DNA of 64,000 nucleotides from Calditrichia bacterium (GCA_965227145.1 OZ245730.1:3086187-3150186); one strand, 5' to 3'; positions 19,809-60,332 are shown, counted from the stretch's first letter. A program made the numbers and translations. The notes: generated by a model from the letters alone, not told the origin.

Positions 19809-20005
19809 GCTGCCATTAAGTTAAGGATCAAAGTGGGCAGTTTTGTCACCCTGAGCTAAGTGTCACCCTGAGCACAGTGTCACCCTGAGCGCAGTCGAAG
19901 GGTCGATGGGTCGATGGGTCGATGGGTCGATGGGTAATTTTGCCGTGCATATATCATGGTTCGACTTCGCTCACCATGACAGGTTGTGCTTAACTTAATG
20001 GCAGC
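19809..20005. repeat. 17-bp perfect inverted repeat pair (GCTGCCATTAAGTTAAG / CTTAACTTAATGGCAGC) bracketing a 163-bp repeat-filled segment
   Basis: Arms at 19809..19825 and 19989..20005, read directly. Confidence 0.8.
19845..19936. repeat. Tandem repeat tract: 3 x 16-bp GTCACCCTGAGCnnnn units then (GGGTCGATG)x4
   Basis: Direct reading; reverse-complement copy with 8 units at 22195..22366. Confidence 0.85.
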
Positions 20006-20012
20006 ATTTCAA

Positions 20013-20066
20013 AGGAGGGGATGTCTGATTTCCCCCTTCGAAGGGGGATTAAGGGGGATGTTATCC
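20013..20066. repeat. Solo copy of the palindromic element family (core CCCCCTTCGAAGGGGG)
   Basis: GGGGATGTCTGATTTCCCCCTTCGAAGGGGGATTAAGGGGGATG; same core as arrays at 50.7 and 51.9-52.35 kb. Confidence 0.8.
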
Positions 20067-22107: not shown

Positions 22108-22166
22108 AGCTTTTAGCTTTTGGCTTTTAGCTTTTGGCTTTTGGCTTTTGGCTTTTGGCTTTTGGC
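22108..22166. repeat. (GGCTTT/AGCTTT)n hexamer tract
   Basis: AGCTTTTAGCTTTTGGCTTTTAGCTTTTGGCTTTTGGCTTTTGGCTTTTGGC. Confidence 0.85.
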
Positions 22167-22194: not shown

Positions 22195-22366
22195 CTTTGC
22201 CGCTTCGACCCTTCGACCCTTCGACTGCGCTCAGGGTGACACTGCGCTCAGGGTGACACTTGCTCAGGGTGACACTGCGCTCAGGGTGACACTTGCTCAG
22301 GGTGACACTTGCTCAGGGTGACAATCGCTCAGGGTGACACTGCGCTCAGGGTGACACTGCGCTCAG
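22195..22366. repeat. Tandem repeat tract: (CCTTCGAC)x3 then 8 x 16-bp GCTCAGGGTGACAnnn units; inverted copy of 19845..19936
   Basis: Direct reading; reverse complement gives GTCACCCTGAGC units as in the 19.85-kb tract. Confidence 0.85.
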
Positions 22367-22470
22367 GACAAGCCTTTTACTTTTTCCCTTCGGCTTCGCT
22401 CAGGACGAGCCTTTTTACTTTTTACTTTTTCCCTTCGGCTTCGCTCAGGACGAGCCTTTTTACTTATTTC
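22357..22470. repeat. ~48-bp direct repeat x2 (CGCTCAGGACRAGCC-TTTTTACT-TTTTCCCTTCGGCTT) just 3' of gmd
   Basis: Direct reading. Confidence 0.7.
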
Positions 22471-23718: not shown

Positions 23719-23940
23719 ACGCACCTCGTTACAGGCTCCTGCCTGGAATGTCTTTATCCGGTGAGGGATGATTTGGATACAATAATGGAACAGCTACGAT
23801 GTTCGACGCACCTCGTTACAGGCTCCTGCCTGGAATGTCTTTATCCGGTTATTTGGATACAATAACGGAACATCTACGATGTTCGACGCACCTCGTTACA
23901 GGCTCCTGCCTGGAATGTCTTTATCCGGTTAGGGAAGCAA
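23719..23940. repeat. ~86-bp tandem direct repeat, about 2.6 copies, upstream of gmd
   Basis: Unit GACGCACCTCGTTACAGGCTCCTGCCTGGAATGTCTTTATCCGGT...TTTGGATACAATAATGGAACAGCTACGATGTTC; partial fourth copy at 24086..24120. Confidence 0.85.
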
Positions 23941-49486: not shown

Positions 49487-49777
49487 TCGTTATTGGTTAA
49501 TTGCTTTTTTTTTAATCTTAATACTTTAATCTTGTCTTTTCAGGGTCGGTGCCTCTTTTACTGCAGGAAAAAAAAAGAAAAAAGAAAAAAGAAAAAAGAA
49601 AAAAGAAAAAGGAGAAAAACGAGAAAGTGAGAGATGTATTGCTTTTTGAGATTTGTGCATACTTTTGTGTAATATTGATTTTGTTTTCATTTTAACCACC
49701 TAAATTGCATATTTTTTTAAATCGTCCTTTTTCTTCCGTCTTTATTCCTTGTTCTTTCATCTTTTTTCTTTACTCTT

Positions 49778-50200
49778 TTATCTTTGATCTTTCTTCTGGT
49801 CACATTTCGAGACGATTGAACCCAGGATGAGGGCTAATTCTTTTGATTCATTCACCAAGAATCTTCTCTCATCAATATTGCCAATTTCCAATTCATCAAC
49901 AATTCTCAAAAAGTAATTGCTTTCCCTGGCTTCTCTTAGCGCAATTCGCACTTTCTGGACAAATTCACGGTATGTTGATGCCTGAGATTCCTCATAGTTG
50001 GCACCAATTGAAGTCGCTGCTTTTGAAATTTGATACCGAAATACGTCGTATTCTTTCCTGGAAGGGATTGTAAGCAAAAATTTCATGGTTCTGACAGCAA
50101 AGTTGAACAACCGTTTACGCAGGTCCGTTTGATATTTTTGTTCAACTTCCTTGACAATTAAATCAATGTTCCCCGGCACTTCCTGATAATCAATCATCAC
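49778..50200 (-). CDS. Four-helix-bundle protein (23S rRNA intervening-sequence protein family)
   Basis: 140 aa; family-typical SIGANYEESQ and REARESNYFLRI segments. Confidence 0.75.
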   Translation of the reverse strand: MMIDYQEVPGNIDLIVKEVEQKYQTDLRKRLFNFAVRTMKFLLTIPSRKEYDVFRYQISKAATSIGANYEESQASTYREFVQKVRIALREARESNYFLRIVDELEIGNIDERRFLVNESKELALILGSIVSKCDQKKDQR

Positions 50201-50218
50201 AATGGTTTTCGTTATTTG

Positions 50219-50310
50219 TCATTGATCTTTTGTCTTTTGTCTTTGATTTTTTGTCTTTGATCTTTTGTCTTAATGGTCAATGGTCAATGGTCAATGGTTA
50301 ATTAACAATT
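50219..50310. repeat. Simple repeat tract: (TCTTTTG/TCTTTGA)n then (GGTCAAT)x3
   Basis: Direct reading. Confidence 0.8.
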
Positions 50311-50374
50311 GACAATAATCAATTAACAAAATTCATTATTCCATATTCAATAGCCAACGGCGGTTTGCGTAGCT

Positions 50375-50666
50375 GCGGATGGTGGTTCAACTTTTTTCCT
50401 GACCTGCCGCTAAAGTGCGGATGGCGGTTCAACTTTTTTCCTGACCTGCCGCTAAAGTGCGAATAGTGGTTCTAAATGTTTACAACCGGCTTGTCACTAT
50501 GCCGGAAGGGGTTCAACAATATTCCCAACCTGTCGTCACTGTGCGGAAGGCAATGTAACTTTTTGATAGGCCTGTTGTCGTAGTGCAGAAGGGTTTTTAA
50601 AAAGTTTCGGCAGGGTTAAACAGTAGCCGAAGGGCAGGTATATTGTTTAAAAACAGGTTGTTAGGG
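50375..50666. repeat. Degenerating ~42-bp tandem array (2 near-identical plus ~5 decayed units)
   Basis: Units 1-2 GCGGATGGYGGTTCAACTTTTTTCCTGACCTGCCGCTAAAGT; later units keep the GCRGAAGG...TTCAAC...CCTG...GT skeleton. Confidence 0.7.
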
Positions 50667-50692
50667 ATATTCCGGTTTGTTAAGACCGCTGC

Positions 50693-50812
50693 AAGAAACA
50701 TCCCCCTTCGAAGGGGGAAATCTTGTTAGCCCCTCTTTGAAGAGGGGTTGGGGAGATGTAATCTTAAGAGACATCCCCCTTTATCCCCCTTTGAAGGGGG
50801 AAATTTTAAGAA
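50693..50812. repeat. Palindromic element family, ~1.5 units, immediately upstream of ORF 50909..51646
   Basis: AAGAAACATCCCCCTTCGAAGGGGG...CCCCTCTTTGAAGAGGGGTTGGGGAGATG... Confidence 0.85.
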
Positions 50813-50908
50813 AAAACATTTTTTTTCTAAAGTTTTCTGTTCGCATCCGATCACTTAAACATCGATAATTCATTCAATAGTATCTATTCAAACTAAGGAG
50901 AGACGCAT

Positions 50909-51646
50909 ATGATAGACCTGAGCAGATTTTTTGAAAATCAATTTGACGCCAGGATCATTAGTGACGACCGGCTGCGAAGCTTTACGGCAGATCACATCCA
51001 GCGGATGATTGCCAATAACACGGACGGCAGGTATGATCCGCTGATTGAACCCACCAAGACGTTTTACGATGCGTATTTTAACGCGATCCAGACCGAAGAT
51101 GTGCGCCTGACCGAAAAGCAGGCCATGACATTAACCAAGGATGTGAATAAAACCAATTTTGTCAAAGCGATCCGCCAGAAAGAAGGGATCATCCGGGGCA
51201 CCTGGGGCAAACAATCGCCGGAATACCGGGAATTTTTCCCGCGCGGTGTGGCAGAATATACCCGCTGCACATTGGCCAATGCGGAGAACCTGATGGCCCG
51301 CATCCTGAACCTGTCGGATAAATACAAGGATGTGTTGGGACAGGATTTTGTTGACTTGTTTACCCGTCTCCAAAACGAGTTTGTTACGGCACGGGAACAA
51401 CAGTTGCAAAAGTCCGGCAAGGTATCGGACCTGAAGCAAACCACCCGGGGCAACCGTGAAGCCCTCACCAACCAGTTGACCAAAAACCTGCTGAGCCTGG
51501 CGATTGATTCGATCGGCGAGCCGCAGCGGGTGACGGACTTCTTCGACCAGCGCATTTTGCGACGCAACAGCCGGCGCAGCGCAGGGCCGGAAAATGAACC
51601 GGTTTCTGTCAATGATACGGTTATCGAGGATGTTGTTGCCGGTTAA
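50909..51646 (+). CDS. Hypothetical protein (no recognisable domain); only plus-strand gene inside the repeat island
   Basis: 245-aa ORF with AAGGAG-like RBS (AAGGAGAGACGCAT-ATG); GC clearly higher than the adjacent AT-rich locus. Confidence 0.6.
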   Translation: MIDLSRFFENQFDARIISDDRLRSFTADHIQRMIANNTDGRYDPLIEPTKTFYDAYFNAIQTEDVRLTEKQAMTLTKDVNKTNFVKAIRQKEGIIRGTWGKQSPEYREFFPRGVAEYTRCTLANAENLMARILNLSDKYKDVLGQDFVDLFTRLQNEFVTAREQQLQKSGKVSDLKQTTRGNREALTNQLTKNLLSLAIDSIGEPQRVTDFFDQRILRRNSRRSAGPENEPVSVNDTVIEDVVAG

Positions 51647-51703
51647 TGTGTCATTCGGGGAACAGTTGCGTCGGTGTGATTGTTCCCTGTCGTTTTGTTT
51701 TGT

Positions 51704-51752
51704 CAATTAGCAATTAGCAATTAGCAATTAGCAATTAGCAATTAGCAATTGG
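51704..51752. repeat. (CAATTAG)x7 heptamer tract
   Basis: Direct reading. Confidence 0.9.
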
Positions 51753-51892
51753 CTGTTTTTTACTGCGAATGGTCAATGGTCAACCCATAAGTGGCATATC
51801 GTTATGTAAATGGGGTTCAATGGGTTTTGGTTGGGTTAATCTATTGCTGAAGGTGATGGATATAGTTTAAAAATAGTGAACGACATCTTTTT

Positions 51893-52350
51893 TTGTCCCC
51901 TGATAGACATCCCTCTGTGTCCCCTTAAGAAACATCCCCCTTTGTCCCCCTTCGAAGGGGGAAAGTTGTTTAGCCCCTCTTTGAAGAGGGGTTGGGGAGA
52001 TGTTTCTTTTGCCTTTTGAAACAGCTTCTTTTTATCACCCTAAGAGACATCCCCCTGTGTCCCCCTTCGAAGGGGGAAAGTTGTTTAGCCCCTCTTTGAA
52101 GAGGGGTTTGGGGAGATGTTTCTTCAGCTTTTTGATACAGCTTCTTTTTATCCTCTAAGAAACATCCCCCTTTGTCCCCCTTCGAAGGGGGAATCTTTTT
52201 AGCCCCTCTTTGAAGAGGGGTTGGGGAGATGTTTCTTTTGCTTTTTGAAACAGCTTCTTTTTATCCTCTAAGAGACATCCCCCTGTGTCCCCCTTCGAAG
52301 GGGGAGTCTTTTTTGCCCCTCTTTGAAGAGGGGTTGGGGAGATGTTTTCT
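51893..52350. repeat. Tandem array of ~113-bp palindrome-containing units (4 units, alternating A/B variants)
   Basis: Each unit: AAGARACATCCCC...CCCCCTTCGAAGGGGG (perfect 16-bp palindrome)...CCCCTCTTTGAAGAGGGG (hairpin)...GGGGAGATGTTTCTT (inverted copy of the unit start). Unit starts near 51929, 52044, 52156, 52270. Confidence 0.9.
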
Positions 52351-52392
52351 TCGGCAAGTAGAAGGGCACGGCGGTGCCGTGCCCCTACGTAA

Positions 52393-53523: not shown

Positions 53524-53954
53524 ATAAATATACCAGTGTTGTTGTGTTGTTGTGTTATCGTTTTACCGTATTTTTGTGTTGCTGAATACGATATGCAGAT
53601 AATTTACACGAACGGTATTGAATGAATCAATGGATAAATAAATCACTGGTTTGAGGAAGTTGAAAAGGTGAAAGGGAAAAGGTGAAAGTAAAAAGGGAAA
53701 ATGATGTTTAGATTCTGGATTTGGCTTTGATGAGTATTGCGCCAAAGATGCGTTTAATTTCTTCAGCTTCCTGATCAAGAGTTGATCGTTGGTGCTGATC
53801 ACCGATTCCTAACCCGGAAATCAGACGAAAAAAGTAGTGTGTTTCCCTGGCTTCTTTTAGGCAGATTGAAATTTTATTTGCAAAATCTTTGGGGCTTGCT
53901 GCATCCTGCGCTTCTTCATTCACACTGTGAAATATTTTAAAAAGAGAATTATTG

Positions 53955-54262
53955 ATTTAATTTCACAGGGTGTAATTATCTTGACTTATGTCGGACAAAA
54001 ACTTTCGTATTCTATTTCTGATATATCTTTTGCCGTATGTCGTTTTAAGATACTTTTCTCTATGTGTTGCATCCTGTTGATTCAGACAGGCTTCGTAATA
54101 TACAAGTTTCAGAGGTCTTCTATCAGCGGTTGATTTAACTTTGCCTGCTTGGTGTTCTGAGATTCTCATTTTCAAGTCACTTGTGTAACCCGTGTAGAAT
54201 TTTCTGTCCTTCTGACTCAACAATACGTAAACATAAAAAAAATTCATTTAATTTCACAGGGT
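53955..54262 (-). mobile_element. Putative mini mobile element: GIY-YIG ORF bounded by 17-bp perfect direct repeats ATTTAATTTCACAGGGT
   Basis: Direct repeats at 53955..53971 and 54246..54262. One overlaps the ORF start codon, the other its stop codon. Element sits inside the conserved SIGAN motif of the host 4HB gene. Confidence 0.55.
53963..54247 (-). CDS. GIY-YIG nuclease family protein (small stand-alone form)
   Basis: 94 aa; MNFFYVYVLLSQKDRKFYTGYTSDLKMRISEH matches the GIY-YIG motif (YVYVL...YTGYT...R..EH). Confidence 0.8.
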   Translation of the reverse strand: MNFFYVYVLLSQKDRKFYTGYTSDLKMRISEHQAGKVKSTADRRPLKLVYYEACLNQQDATHREKYLKTTYGKRYIRNRIRKFLSDISQDNYTL

Positions 54263-60161: not shown

Positions 60162-60332
60162 GAGACAATTCGCTCGTAGTAGAGACAATTCATGAATTGT
60201 CTCTACGGGTGAATTCATGAATTGTCTCTACGGGTGAATTCATGAATTGTCTCTACGGGTGAATTCATGAATTGTCGCTACGGGTGATTTGTCTCTCGGG
60301 TGAATTGTTTATATCATTAAAAATTTTATCAA
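60162..60332. repeat. Tandem array of 25-bp units GGGTGAATTCATGAATTGTCTCTAC (4 full copies plus flanking partials), each with the 12-bp palindrome AATTCATGAATT; first copy forms a 28-bp perfect palindrome
   Basis: 28-bp palindrome GTAGAGACAATTCATGAATTGTCTCTAC at 60179..60206; array fills essentially the whole gap between the HtrA-like stop and the EVE start. Confidence 0.9.

What the first reader, a model, noticed from the sequence alone, without database searches (positions are those of the whole stretch)
50909..51646. Orphan plus-strand ORF embedded in the repeat island
This 245-aa ORF has a good RBS, no recognisable motif, opposite orientation to the whole polysaccharide locus and higher GC than its neighbours. 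It is flanked upstream by palindromic elements and the 42-bp array, and downstream by (CAATTAG)x7 plus the four-unit palindromic array. It could be cargo of a mobile or selfish island, or a regulator acting on the repeats.
Basis: partly seen in the sequence, partly recalled or inferred. Interest (0 to 1): 0.5.

Follow-up and report, generated by a model that had tools for sequence, protein, structure and literature searches.

The report
Unknown protein with 42-bp repeat partner
The "orphan" ORF is a real gene from a large, unnamed family of rod-shaped helical proteins, and in four bacterial phyla this family is almost always preceded by a tandem array of 42-bp palindrome-bearing repeats, a gene-plus-repeat pairing I could not find described anywhere.

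Summary
The ORF (50909-51646, +) is real. It has an AGGAG ribosome-binding site, its own terminator and a purifying-selection signature, and it lies opposite to the polysaccharide locus. It matches no Pfam, NCBIfam, PHROG, PADLOC or PDB family. It is not an orphan: 717 clusters (50% identity) match it, from Calditrichia (the window's organism), Ignavibacteriota, Bacteroidota and Verrucomicrobiota. AlphaFold (pLDDT 95) gives an elongated all-helical bundle with no specific structural relative.

They are absent from all homologue loci, vary between strains and occur elsewhere in the window.

The 42-bp array is linked. Of 68 non-identical family loci, 56 show strong periodicity just upstream of the gene, and 53 of these have lag 42 or 84. 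Controls gave 2/43 and 1/50. Each unit carries two palindromes 21 bp apart, with covarying stems.

Arrays occur in both orientations relative to the gene and show no G·U strand bias. I therefore favour a helically phased double-stranded DNA platform at the promoter, probably bound by the encoded protein. An RNA-repeat/protein pair resembling type III toxin-antitoxin systems is the main rival. The mechanism is inferred, not shown.

The parts
50332..50668 (.). 42-bp-period tandem array of about 8 units. Two near-perfect units lie at 50374-50457 and the rest are degenerate. Each unit has a GC-rich palindrome (CCTGCCGC-TAAAGT-GCGGATGG) plus a T-tract segment. This is the family-specific cis partner of the gene.
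   Evidence: TRF gives period 42, 2.4 copies, 92% matches. Lag 42 is the top autocorrelation over the whole stretch (0.495). In the degenerate part alone it is 0.444, against a shuffle 99th percentile of 0.401. The geometry matches the arrays upstream of homologues in more than 50 other loci. No ORF of 40 aa or more crosses it.
50693..50810 (.). REP/MITE-like palindromic element (outer stem plus hairpins TCCCCCTTCGAAGGGGGA and CCCCTCTTTGAAGAGGGG), inserted between the array and the gene's leader. Not part of the conserved module.
   Evidence: It is absent from homologue loci. It is shorter in strain L099 and longer in L101. Analogous elements are inserted at the same relative place in L058 and L073.
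50840..50869 (+). Candidate sigma-70-like promoter (TTCGCA-18-GATAAT) between the palindromic insertion and the ribosome-binding site. This is a consensus match only.
   Evidence: 9 of 12 positions. No transcript data are available.
50896..50900 (+). Shine-Dalgarno sequence AGGAG, 8 nt before the ATG.
   Evidence: Read directly from the sequence.
50909..51646 (+). Gene for a 245-aa short-form member of an uncharacterised helical-bundle family. Invariant motif KEGxxRGxWG..S..Y..F.P.G..EY at aa 91-117, with a disordered basic-then-acidic C-terminal tail.
51656..51699 (+). Intrinsic terminator-like hairpin plus T-run, ending a monocistronic unit.
51704..51750 (.). CAATTAG x6.7 heptamer array. A genome-specific intergenic repeat, not linked to the family.
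   Evidence: Other heptamer arrays lie elsewhere in the window.
51926..52347 (.). 113-bp palindromic element x3.7, in a strain-variable slot between this gene and DegT. Not linked to the family.
   Evidence: In strains L098-L100 the slot holds a HepT/MNT toxin-antitoxin pair instead.

Best explanation
The ORF is the protein half of a conserved two-part module: a tandem array of 42-bp units followed within about 30-450 bp by the gene for an elongated, all-helical, cytoplasmic protein.

Shown: the gene is real and under purifying selection. It belongs to a large unannotated family in the FCB-group phyla (Calditrichota, Ignavibacteriota, Bacteroidota) and in Verrucomicrobiota. The family gene is preceded by a 42-bp-period array in about 80% of loci. 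Each unit carries two palindromes whose centres are 21 bp apart and whose arms covary. No other gene is conserved next to it.

Inferred: the array works as double-stranded DNA. Its unit length of 42 bp (four helical turns) is held constant while the sequence diverges beyond recognition. Palindromes fall every two turns, on one face of the helix. The array functions in either orientation. It abuts the promoter and leader of the gene. I propose that the array is a phased binding platform on which the encoded protein, probably as a symmetric oligomer, assembles. This would control the protein's own expression and possibly build a larger nucleoprotein structure.

In this window a REP-like palindromic element has been inserted between array and gene without destroying the module. 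The surrounding heptamers and palindromic arrays are unrelated intergenic filler of this Calditrichia genome.
For: Family size: 717 representatives at E<=1e-3 and 436 at E<=1e-10.

Fold: AF2 gives pLDDT 94.8 and pTM 0.80, with two helices of about 57 residues.

Coupling to the array: TRF finds period-42-class arrays upstream in most loci. Of 68 non-identical loci, 56 are strongly periodic, with best lag 42 (38 loci), 84 (15) or 43 (2). Controls gave 2/43 and 1/50. In 529 kb only one other true 42-bp array was found.

Palindromes: the alignment of 40 unit consensuses is 74% paired against 62% when shuffled (0/500). Both-side changes number 82 against 35 (0/500). Slid controls give 34-46%. The central 3 bp of palindrome A show 3-5 pair types.

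Orientation independence: two array classes are related by reverse complement, and the graph 2-colours with zero conflicts. The classes follow protein clades.

No RNA strand signature: G·T and A·C mismatches are balanced, 154 vs 160 in palindrome A. Complementarity often runs up to a 2-nt centre, e.g. CCAA|AA|TTGG.

Position: the gap from array to ATG is as short as 27-51 nt in Bacteroidales-type loci.

Protein residues: the most conserved polar residues are Arg/Gln/Asn/Thr/Tyr (R162, Q165, N193, T74, Y106, Y117), not a catalytic set.

Autonomy: no conserved neighbour gene.
Against: No experiment or transcript map exists. Binding of the protein to the array is pure inference.

The protein has no recognisable DNA-binding motif. 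The N-domain pI has a median of 5.9, which is not basic.

Some members keep the conserved motif but have no detectable array (L002, L014, L062, L083, L095).

A single array can mix palindromes with different arms (L010, L017). That is awkward for strict sequence-specific recognition.

Palindrome B shows a modest G·T excess on the gene strand (143 vs 96). A clade-specific leader with an anti-SD element starts right at the array end, leaving little room for a promoter. Both observations fit transcription through the array.
Confidence: 0.4

Rival explanations
1. RNA-level module. The array is transcribed into a multi-hairpin repeat RNA that partners with the protein. This could work like a type III toxin-antitoxin pair (repeat RNA neutralising a toxic protein), as an RNA sponge or ribonucleoprotein, or as a long structured 5' leader controlling the gene.
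For: The architecture of a tandem repeat array directly upstream of a lone protein gene is the hallmark of ToxIN/CptIN/TenpIN (my own knowledge). Stems covary while a 4-nt centre rich in A (AAAT/AAAG/AAAC) is conserved. Ignavibacteria-type loci have a conserved leader with an anti-SD/SD pair that begins at the array end, leaving no room for a promoter. Palindrome B shows a G·T excess on the gene strand. Annotated neighbours often include toxin-antitoxin or defence genes: AbiE, SEFIR-TIR/PIN, YafQ, HepT/MNT.
Against: Arrays occur in both orientations relative to the gene. Palindrome A has no G·U asymmetry even after arrays are oriented. Complementarity extends into positions that could not pair in an RNA loop. 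No terminator lies between array and gene where the gap is 27-51 nt. The protein is all-alpha, unlike the ToxN/AbiQ fold, and has no PADLOC hit. There are no Rfam matches.
Confidence: 0.25
2. The array is a cis-regulatory or structural DNA element used by host factors, or by DNA topology (phased A-tracts giving curved DNA, cruciform-prone palindromes, binding of nucleoid proteins). It tunes expression of a protein whose own job has nothing to do with nucleic acid, for example a membrane- or granule-associated scaffold.
Against: The palindrome arms diverge freely between clades while keeping symmetry. That is hard to reconcile with a conserved host regulator. Exclusive linkage of the array to this one family across four phyla argues for a specific partner (in 529 kb there is only one other 42-bp array, itself beside a family gene). 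All the structural similarities are generic helical-bundle matches.
Confidence: 0.25
3. One reading: the ORF is cargo of a mobile or selfish repeat island, or a regulator of the palindromic repeat family around it.
For: The ORF sits among IVP four-helix-bundle and GIY-YIG genes, heptamers and REP-like elements. The slot downstream is strain-variable.
Against: A syntenic orthologue exists without those repeats. The palindromic element is not found in L001-L004, although related elements sit between array and gene in L058 and L073. It occurs away from the ORF in the window. The ORF's GC matches the conserved core genes. No transposase or integrase is nearby.
Confidence: 0.05

Closest known systems
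Type III toxin-antitoxin systems (ToxIN, CptIN, TenpIN)
   Same: A tandem array of short direct repeats (about 34-45 nt there, 42 here) lies immediately upstream of a single protein gene. The modules are autonomous and found in variable contexts, often near other toxin-antitoxin or defence genes.
   Different: The protein is an all-helical bundle rather than a ToxN/AbiQ-type endoribonuclease. The array is found in both orientations. Many loci have no terminator between array and gene. The units are built of palindromes, without an RNA-type wobble signature. The module lies on chromosomes of four phyla rather than on plasmids or phage-defence islands.
Centromere-like or iteron arrays next to the gene of their binding protein (F plasmid sopC, 12 x 43 bp, each with a 16-bp inverted repeat bound by SopB; R1 parC/ParR; plasmid iterons/Rep)
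   Same: Tandem units of about 42-43 bp, each carrying a palindrome. Helical phasing at about 21 bp. The array is adjacent to a gene whose product would bind it. The function is independent of orientation at the DNA level.
   Different: There is no ParA/ParM/TubZ NTPase and no Rep-type winged-helix protein. The protein has no HTH/RHH motif. The location is chromosomal (contigs up to 6.3 Mb), and there were no hits in viral contigs. The array is always upstream of the gene.
REP/BIME palindromic elements with RAYT transposases
   Same: Arrays of alternating palindromic units in intergenic DNA, with a gene flanked by palindromes.
   Different: The encoded protein is not an HUH/Y1 transposase. The 42-bp units are not dispersed and occur only at this locus type. 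The truly REP-like elements in the window (113-bp unit) are not linked to the gene.
Helical-bimodular / four-helix-bundle sensor domains (McpS, McpZ, TorS) and LemA or BAR-type bundles
   Different: There is no signal peptide or transmembrane segment. Sequence identity is 5-12%. Foldseek gives E>=0.2. The resemblance is generic for long helical bundles.

Membership tests
Type III toxin-antitoxin (ToxIN/CptIN/TenpIN) | Tandem direct repeats immediately upstream of the toxin gene | tested here: met
   42-bp x 3-13 units lie 27-450 nt upstream in about 80% of loci.
Type III toxin-antitoxin (ToxIN/CptIN/TenpIN) | Repeats co-oriented and co-transcribed with the toxin gene, separated from it by a terminator | tested here: not met
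   Both orientations are found. Gaps of 27-51 nt hold no terminator. Transcription itself could not be tested.
Type III toxin-antitoxin (ToxIN/CptIN/TenpIN) | Toxin of the ToxN/AbiQ endoribonuclease fold or family | tested here: not met
   The AF2 model is all-alpha. There are no PADLOC or Pfam hits for the query, and none consistent across 73 members.
Type III toxin-antitoxin (ToxIN/CptIN/TenpIN) | Repeat RNA is processed to unit length and neutralises the protein | not testable with these tools
   Needs expression and toxicity assays and RNA analysis.
Partition centromere plus centromere-binding protein (sopC/SopB, parC/ParR) | Phased tandem repeats carrying palindromic binding sites | tested here: met
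   42-bp units with palindrome centres 21 bp apart and covarying arms.
Partition centromere plus centromere-binding protein (sopC/SopB, parC/ParR) | Adjacent partition NTPase (ParA/ParM/TubZ) | tested here: not met
   No conserved neighbour gene in 15, 17 or 58 loci. Pfam-annotated neighbours show no ParA-like gene.
Partition centromere plus centromere-binding protein (sopC/SopB, parC/ParR) | Binding protein with a ParB-HTH or RHH fold, on a plasmid or phage replicon | tested here: not met
   No Pfam or PDB match. Contigs are chromosomal, at 171-515 kb and 6.28 Mb. No viral-contig relative was found.
Iteron-controlled replicon (Rep plus iterons) | Winged-helix Rep initiator encoded next to about 20-bp direct repeats | tested here: not met
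   The repeats show 21-bp sub-periodicity, but the protein is a helical bundle with no Rep family hit.
REP/BIME-RAYT | HUH/Y1 transposase flanked by genome-dispersed REP palindromes | tested here: not met
   No transposase domain. The 42-bp units are not dispersed. The dispersed palindromic element is not linked to the family.
CRISPR array | Conserved repeats alternating with unique spacers | tested here: not met
   The units are contiguous 42-mers without unique spacers. No cas genes are nearby.
Known structured RNA families (Rfam 15) | Match to a curated covariance model | tested here: not met
   No hit on the array in the window (E<=1) or in seven loci (E<=0.1).

The most novel reading that the evidence does not exclude
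The 42-bp array and the helical-bundle protein form a previously undescribed, widespread nucleic-acid/protein system of FCB-group bacteria and Verrucomicrobiota. It could be a chromosomal nucleoprotein platform, with protein filaments assembling on helically phased palindromes. It could instead be a new class of repeat-RNA/protein pair, analogous to type III toxin-antitoxin systems but built on a different protein fold. In either case the function (self-regulation, defence or chromosome organisation) would be unlike any catalogued family.
Probability: 0.45. Interest if true: 0.85.

Novelty: categorically new. Interest (0 to 1): 0.7.

Why it matters
A protein family with hundreds of sequence clusters across four phyla has no name, no domain model and no structural relative. 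It nevertheless carries an unusually clear genomic signature: a repeat array of fixed 42-bp period that has stayed attached to the gene while its sequence diverged beyond recognition.

Fixed-geometry repeat-plus-protein pairings have repeatedly marked important biology, including CRISPR, type III toxin-antitoxin systems, plasmid centromeres and iterons. This pairing gives a directly testable hypothesis: does the protein bind the array, and as DNA or as RNA?

It also has a practical annotation consequence. Gene callers currently predict spurious ORFs across these arrays, and assemblies break at them.

For the window itself, the result separates one functional repeat from several kinds of unrelated intergenic repeat filler.

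Tried and rejected
1. Direct family assignment. Pfam, NCBIfam, PHROGs and PADLOC gave nothing for the query. Across 73 members the only consistent hit was a C-terminal CarboxypepD_reg-like domain in long forms. PDB sequence profiles gave only noise.

3. Phage origin. There is no relative in viral contigs.

4. A conserved neighbour gene. None was found. The recurrent 'neighbour' clusters turned out to be pseudo-ORFs translated from the arrays. That is how the 42-nt (14-aa) periodicity was noticed. The T9SS-tail neighbours are at about the chance rate.

5. Linkage with the palindromic element. Rejected.

6. The array as a known RNA. No Rfam hit.

7. An RNA strand signature from G·T versus A·C mismatches. 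None was seen in gene orientation or after orienting the arrays. RNAalifold energies were similar for the two strands.

8. A sigma-54 upstream activating sequence. No -24/-12 promoters were found.

9. Active phase-variable inversion. Rejected, because orientation follows protein clades.

10. A coding repeat. The window array has stops in all frames.

11. Literature. Three full-text searches found no description.

12. The first AF2 run, with 8 sequences, was poor (pLDDT 66) and was superseded by the 73-sequence run.

Full report
**1. The observation**

The ORF at 50909-51646 (+) is present as described. It encodes 245 aa and starts with ATG. AGGAG lies 8 nt upstream of the ATG. A strong terminator-like hairpin with a T-run follows directly after the stop codon, at 51656-51689.

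The ORF points against a long minus-strand polysaccharide locus. That locus includes a sugar transferase, glycosyltransferases, a Polysacc_synt flippase, an NTP-transferase, a dehydratase, a DegT aminotransferase and a GFO/hexapeptide enzyme.

The GC remark is only half right. The ORF's GC of 0.519 exceeds that of the low-GC variable genes upstream (0.34-0.39). It equals that of the conserved DegT and GFO genes downstream (0.538 and 0.499).

The ORF is coding. Against a 73%-identical orthologue, nucleotide differences fall 48/39/115 on codon positions 1/2/3.

**2. The protein**

No Pfam, NCBIfam, PHROG or PADLOC model matches. A word-indexed search found only 7 relatives. An exhaustive phmmer search found 717 cluster representatives at E<=1e-3, 436 at E<=1e-10 and 94 at E<=1e-30. 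They fall into two length classes, about 230 aa and about 320 aa.

All source names say 'hypothetical protein'. The window's organism is a Calditrichia bacterium, based on a cluster member named by NCBI. Other members come from Ignavibacteriota, Bacteroidota and one Verrucomicrobiaceae MAG.

Close relatives share the motif KEGxxRGxWG..S..Y..F.P.G..EY. Across 73 diverse members, Q165 is invariant, and T74, Y106, F109, P111, G113, Y117, R162, N193 and F212 are conserved in at least 90%. The extra C-terminal domain of long forms hits CarboxypepD_reg-like beta-sandwich models in 8 of 73 members.

With the 73-sequence alignment, AlphaFold2 gives a confident model (pLDDT 94.8, pTM 0.80). It is an elongated all-helical bundle dominated by two helices of about 57 residues, joined by the conserved loop-rich head. 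The C-terminal tail is disordered.

**3. What is not linked to the gene**

The palindromic element (TCCCCCTTCGAAGGGGGA / CCCCTCTTTGAAGAGGGG) has 7 and 5 copies in the window, including one at 20031, far from the ORF. It is absent from the first four homologue loci, including the syntenic orthologue L001.

Near-identical Calditrichia strains differ in its copy number between array and gene (L099 against L101 and the window). In three strains, the slot that here holds the four-unit palindromic array holds a HepT/MNT toxin-antitoxin pair instead.

The window carries many other tandem repeats in other intergenic spacers. These elements, the heptamers, the IVP four-helix-bundle genes and the GIY-YIG gene are therefore intergenic 'filler' of this genome. 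They are not partners of the ORF.

No protein-coding neighbour is conserved across 15, 17 or 58 loci.

**4. What is linked: the 42-bp array**

While clustering neighbour ORFs, I saw that the supposedly conserved upstream ORFs were periodic translations with a 14-aa repeat. TRF then showed period-42 arrays (or 84 or 126) ending 27-450 nt before the start codon in nearly every locus, in perfect register over 3-13 units.

A metagenome scan added 72 loci. Results for 68 non-identical loci with at least 400 nt of upstream sequence:
- 56 have at least 60% self-identity over 126 nt at their best lag.
- That lag is 42 in 38 loci, 84 in 15, 43 in 2 and 58 in 1.
- Control regions give 2/43 and 1/50.

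In 529 kb of locus DNA, the only other true 42-bp array lies beside a family gene at a contig end (L062).

The window's own array extends over 50332-50668. Lag 42 is the top autocorrelation there, and it is significant even in the degenerate part. The array is conserved in a sister strain. The orthologue L001 also has one, at 292-531. The Verrucomicrobial member has one too (L016).

Unit sequences differ completely between clades, yet the length stays at 42.

**5. Anatomy of the unit**

Consensus units from 40 arrays can be put in register.

- Palindrome A is typically ATTnnnA-AAAN-TnnnAAT. In the window it is CCTGCCGC-TAAAGT-GCGGATGG.
- Palindrome B is centred exactly 21 nt later, for example TCTGAA-AG-TTCAGA.

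On this alignment, 74% of cells pair, against 62% after shuffling (0/500). There are 82 cells with changes on both sides, against 35 (0/500). Partners slid by 1-3 columns give 34-46% pairing. The three central pairs of A show 3-5 different Watson-Crick types. Two caveats apply: the sequences are related, and the register was partly set by symmetry.

In some clades the two halves of the unit are recognisably similar, which gives a 21-bp sub-period.

**6. DNA or RNA?**

Four observations favour a double-stranded DNA element.

(a) Arrays occur in both orientations relative to the gene. In a 13-array similarity component, units match at 30-32 of 42 positions when one is reverse-complemented, against 19-27 in the same sense. 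The graph 2-colours without conflict. Orientation follows protein clades (64-92% identity within classes, 56-66% between). The inversions are therefore rare and ancient, not phase variation.

(b) G·T and A·C mismatches in palindrome A are balanced: 154 vs 160 over 229 units. This holds after orienting the arrays as well.

(c) Complementarity often runs up to a 2-nt centre, which an RNA hairpin could not use.

(d) The strictly conserved 42-bp period, with palindromes every 21 bp, equals four and two helical turns.

Three observations fit RNA.

- The A-rich centre of palindrome A is conserved while the arms vary.
- Palindrome B has a G·T excess on the gene strand (143 vs 96).
- In at least 9 Ignavibacteria-type loci, a conserved leader begins right at the array end. 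It has a hairpin AATCCAT-N7-ATGGATT, a second hairpin with compensatory variants, and ACCTCCC about 45 nt before the SD GGAGGT. This leaves little room for a promoter.

No Rfam family matches. No sigma-54 promoters are present.

**7. Most likely mechanism and rivals**

I commit to the following reading, with about 0.4 confidence. The array is a helically phased, orientation-independent DNA platform abutting the gene's promoter, and the encoded helical-bundle protein assembles on it for autoregulation or as a larger nucleoprotein structure.

Shown: the module exists, and its geometry, covariation and orientation independence are measured. Inferred: the array functions as DNA, and the adjacent protein is the binder.

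Points against this reading:
- The protein has no DNA-binding motif.
- The median pI of the N-domain is 5.9.
- A few members lack arrays.
- Some arrays mix palindrome variants.

Rivals:
- A repeat-RNA/protein pair in the manner of type III toxin-antitoxin systems (0.25).
- A host-factor or topology-driven cis element in front of a protein with an unrelated scaffold role (0.25).

**8. Comparison with known systems**

In architecture the module resembles two kinds of system. One is type III toxin-antitoxin loci. The other is centromere or iteron arrays such as F sopC (12 x 43 bp, each unit with an inverted repeat; my own knowledge).

Membership fails for each on tested features:
- The protein fold is wrong for ToxN, and there is no co-orientation or terminator.
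- There is no partition NTPase, no HTH/RHH or Rep fold, and the location is chromosomal.
- There is no HUH transposase, so it is not REP/RAYT.
- There are no spacers, so it is not CRISPR.

Three literature searches returned nothing relevant. I therefore rate it as outside the known kinds. The caveat is that if the DNA-platform reading is right, it works like an operator or centromere array.

**9. Verdict**

The finding as written, an orphan ORF in a repeat island, is ordinary in its literal content and mostly wrong about which repeats matter. Following it up exposed a robust, cross-phylum coupling between an unnamed protein family and a fixed-period repeat array. I could not find that coupling described anywhere, and it is directly testable.

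Interest 0.7.

Noticed in passing
L010, L012, L054, L056, L058, L063, L065, L073, L075 (the ~100 nt before the start codon); e.g. L065 from the array end to the ATG: A conserved 5' leader lies between array and gene in Ignavibacteria-type loci. It has a hairpin AATCCAT-N7-ATGGATT and a second hairpin with compensatory variants (TGGGGT..ATCCCA, GGTGG..CCACC, GATTAG..CTAATC). AAAACCTCCCAA follows, about 45 nt upstream of the SD AAGGAGGTCC. This looks like an SD-sequestering translational control element. Rfam gave no hit for L012.
   Followed up: partly
window 50693-50810, 51926-52347, 20012-20065; L058 and L073 between array and leader: A family of ~85-115-nt 'cloverleaf' palindromic elements: an outer stem (AAGAAACATCTCCCC...GGGGAGATGTTTCTT) enclosing two GC-rich hairpins. 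They behave like REP/MITE insertions. Copy number differs between near-identical strains. Related elements sit at the same relative position in two distant loci.
   Followed up: partly
L098-L100 (1129-2077) versus window 51700-52390: The spacer between this gene and DegT is a strain-variable slot. Three Calditrichia strains carry a HepT-like/MNT (HEPN toxin plus nucleotidyltransferase) pair where the window has CAATTAG repeats and the 113-bp palindromic array.
   Followed up: partly
window 49778-50200 (-), 53708-53923 (-), 53963-54247 (-): Two 23S_rRNA_IVP four-helix-bundle genes (one a fragment) and a GIY-YIG nuclease gene sit in the spacers of the polysaccharide locus, flanked by heptamer or 7-14-21-bp repeats. 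In strain L101 the first IVP gene carries an internal deletion.
   Followed up: partly
window 49571-49618, 50215-50329, 51704-51750, 22109-22166: Several heptamer tandem arrays are present: AAAAAAG x6.9, TTTGTCT/AATGGTC runs, CAATTAG x6.7 and GCTTTTG x8.3. They recall the heptanucleotide repeats of cyanobacteria and the TAACTGA repeats reported in Beggiatoaceae (the paper PMC4679880 was seen in a search listing only and not read).
   Followed up: no
window 19844-19935, 22224-22470, 23771-23931, 60187-60308: Other intergenic tandem arrays: 17-bp ACTGCGCTCAGGGTGAC x8.7 with its reverse complement x3 some 2.3 kb away, GTCGATGG x5, a 45-bp unit x2, an 80-bp unit x2 and a 25-bp unit x4. The genome is unusually rich in intergenic repeats.
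   Followed up: no
L090 2191-2761; L062 4149-4552; L091 1878-3000: Three unusual arrays. L090 has 13.3 nearly identical units of 43 bp. L062 has no upstream array, but a 9.6-unit array lies 180 nt downstream of the gene and runs to the contig end. L091 has two copies of a 367-bp insert between array and gene.
   Followed up: partly
L001 2-808 (+); L017 6568-6900 (-); L020 3892-4263 (-); L023 6546-6905 (-): Public gene calls place 110-268-aa 'genes' across the 42-bp arrays. These are almost certainly artefacts of stop-free repeats. Assemblies of the Calditrichia strains also tend to break 200-380 nt upstream of the gene.
   Followed up: partly
L007 9963-10072 (+): Rfam hit to group II intron domains D1-D4 (RF01999, 36.5 bits, just above the gathering score), about 3 kb downstream of a family gene.
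   Followed up: no
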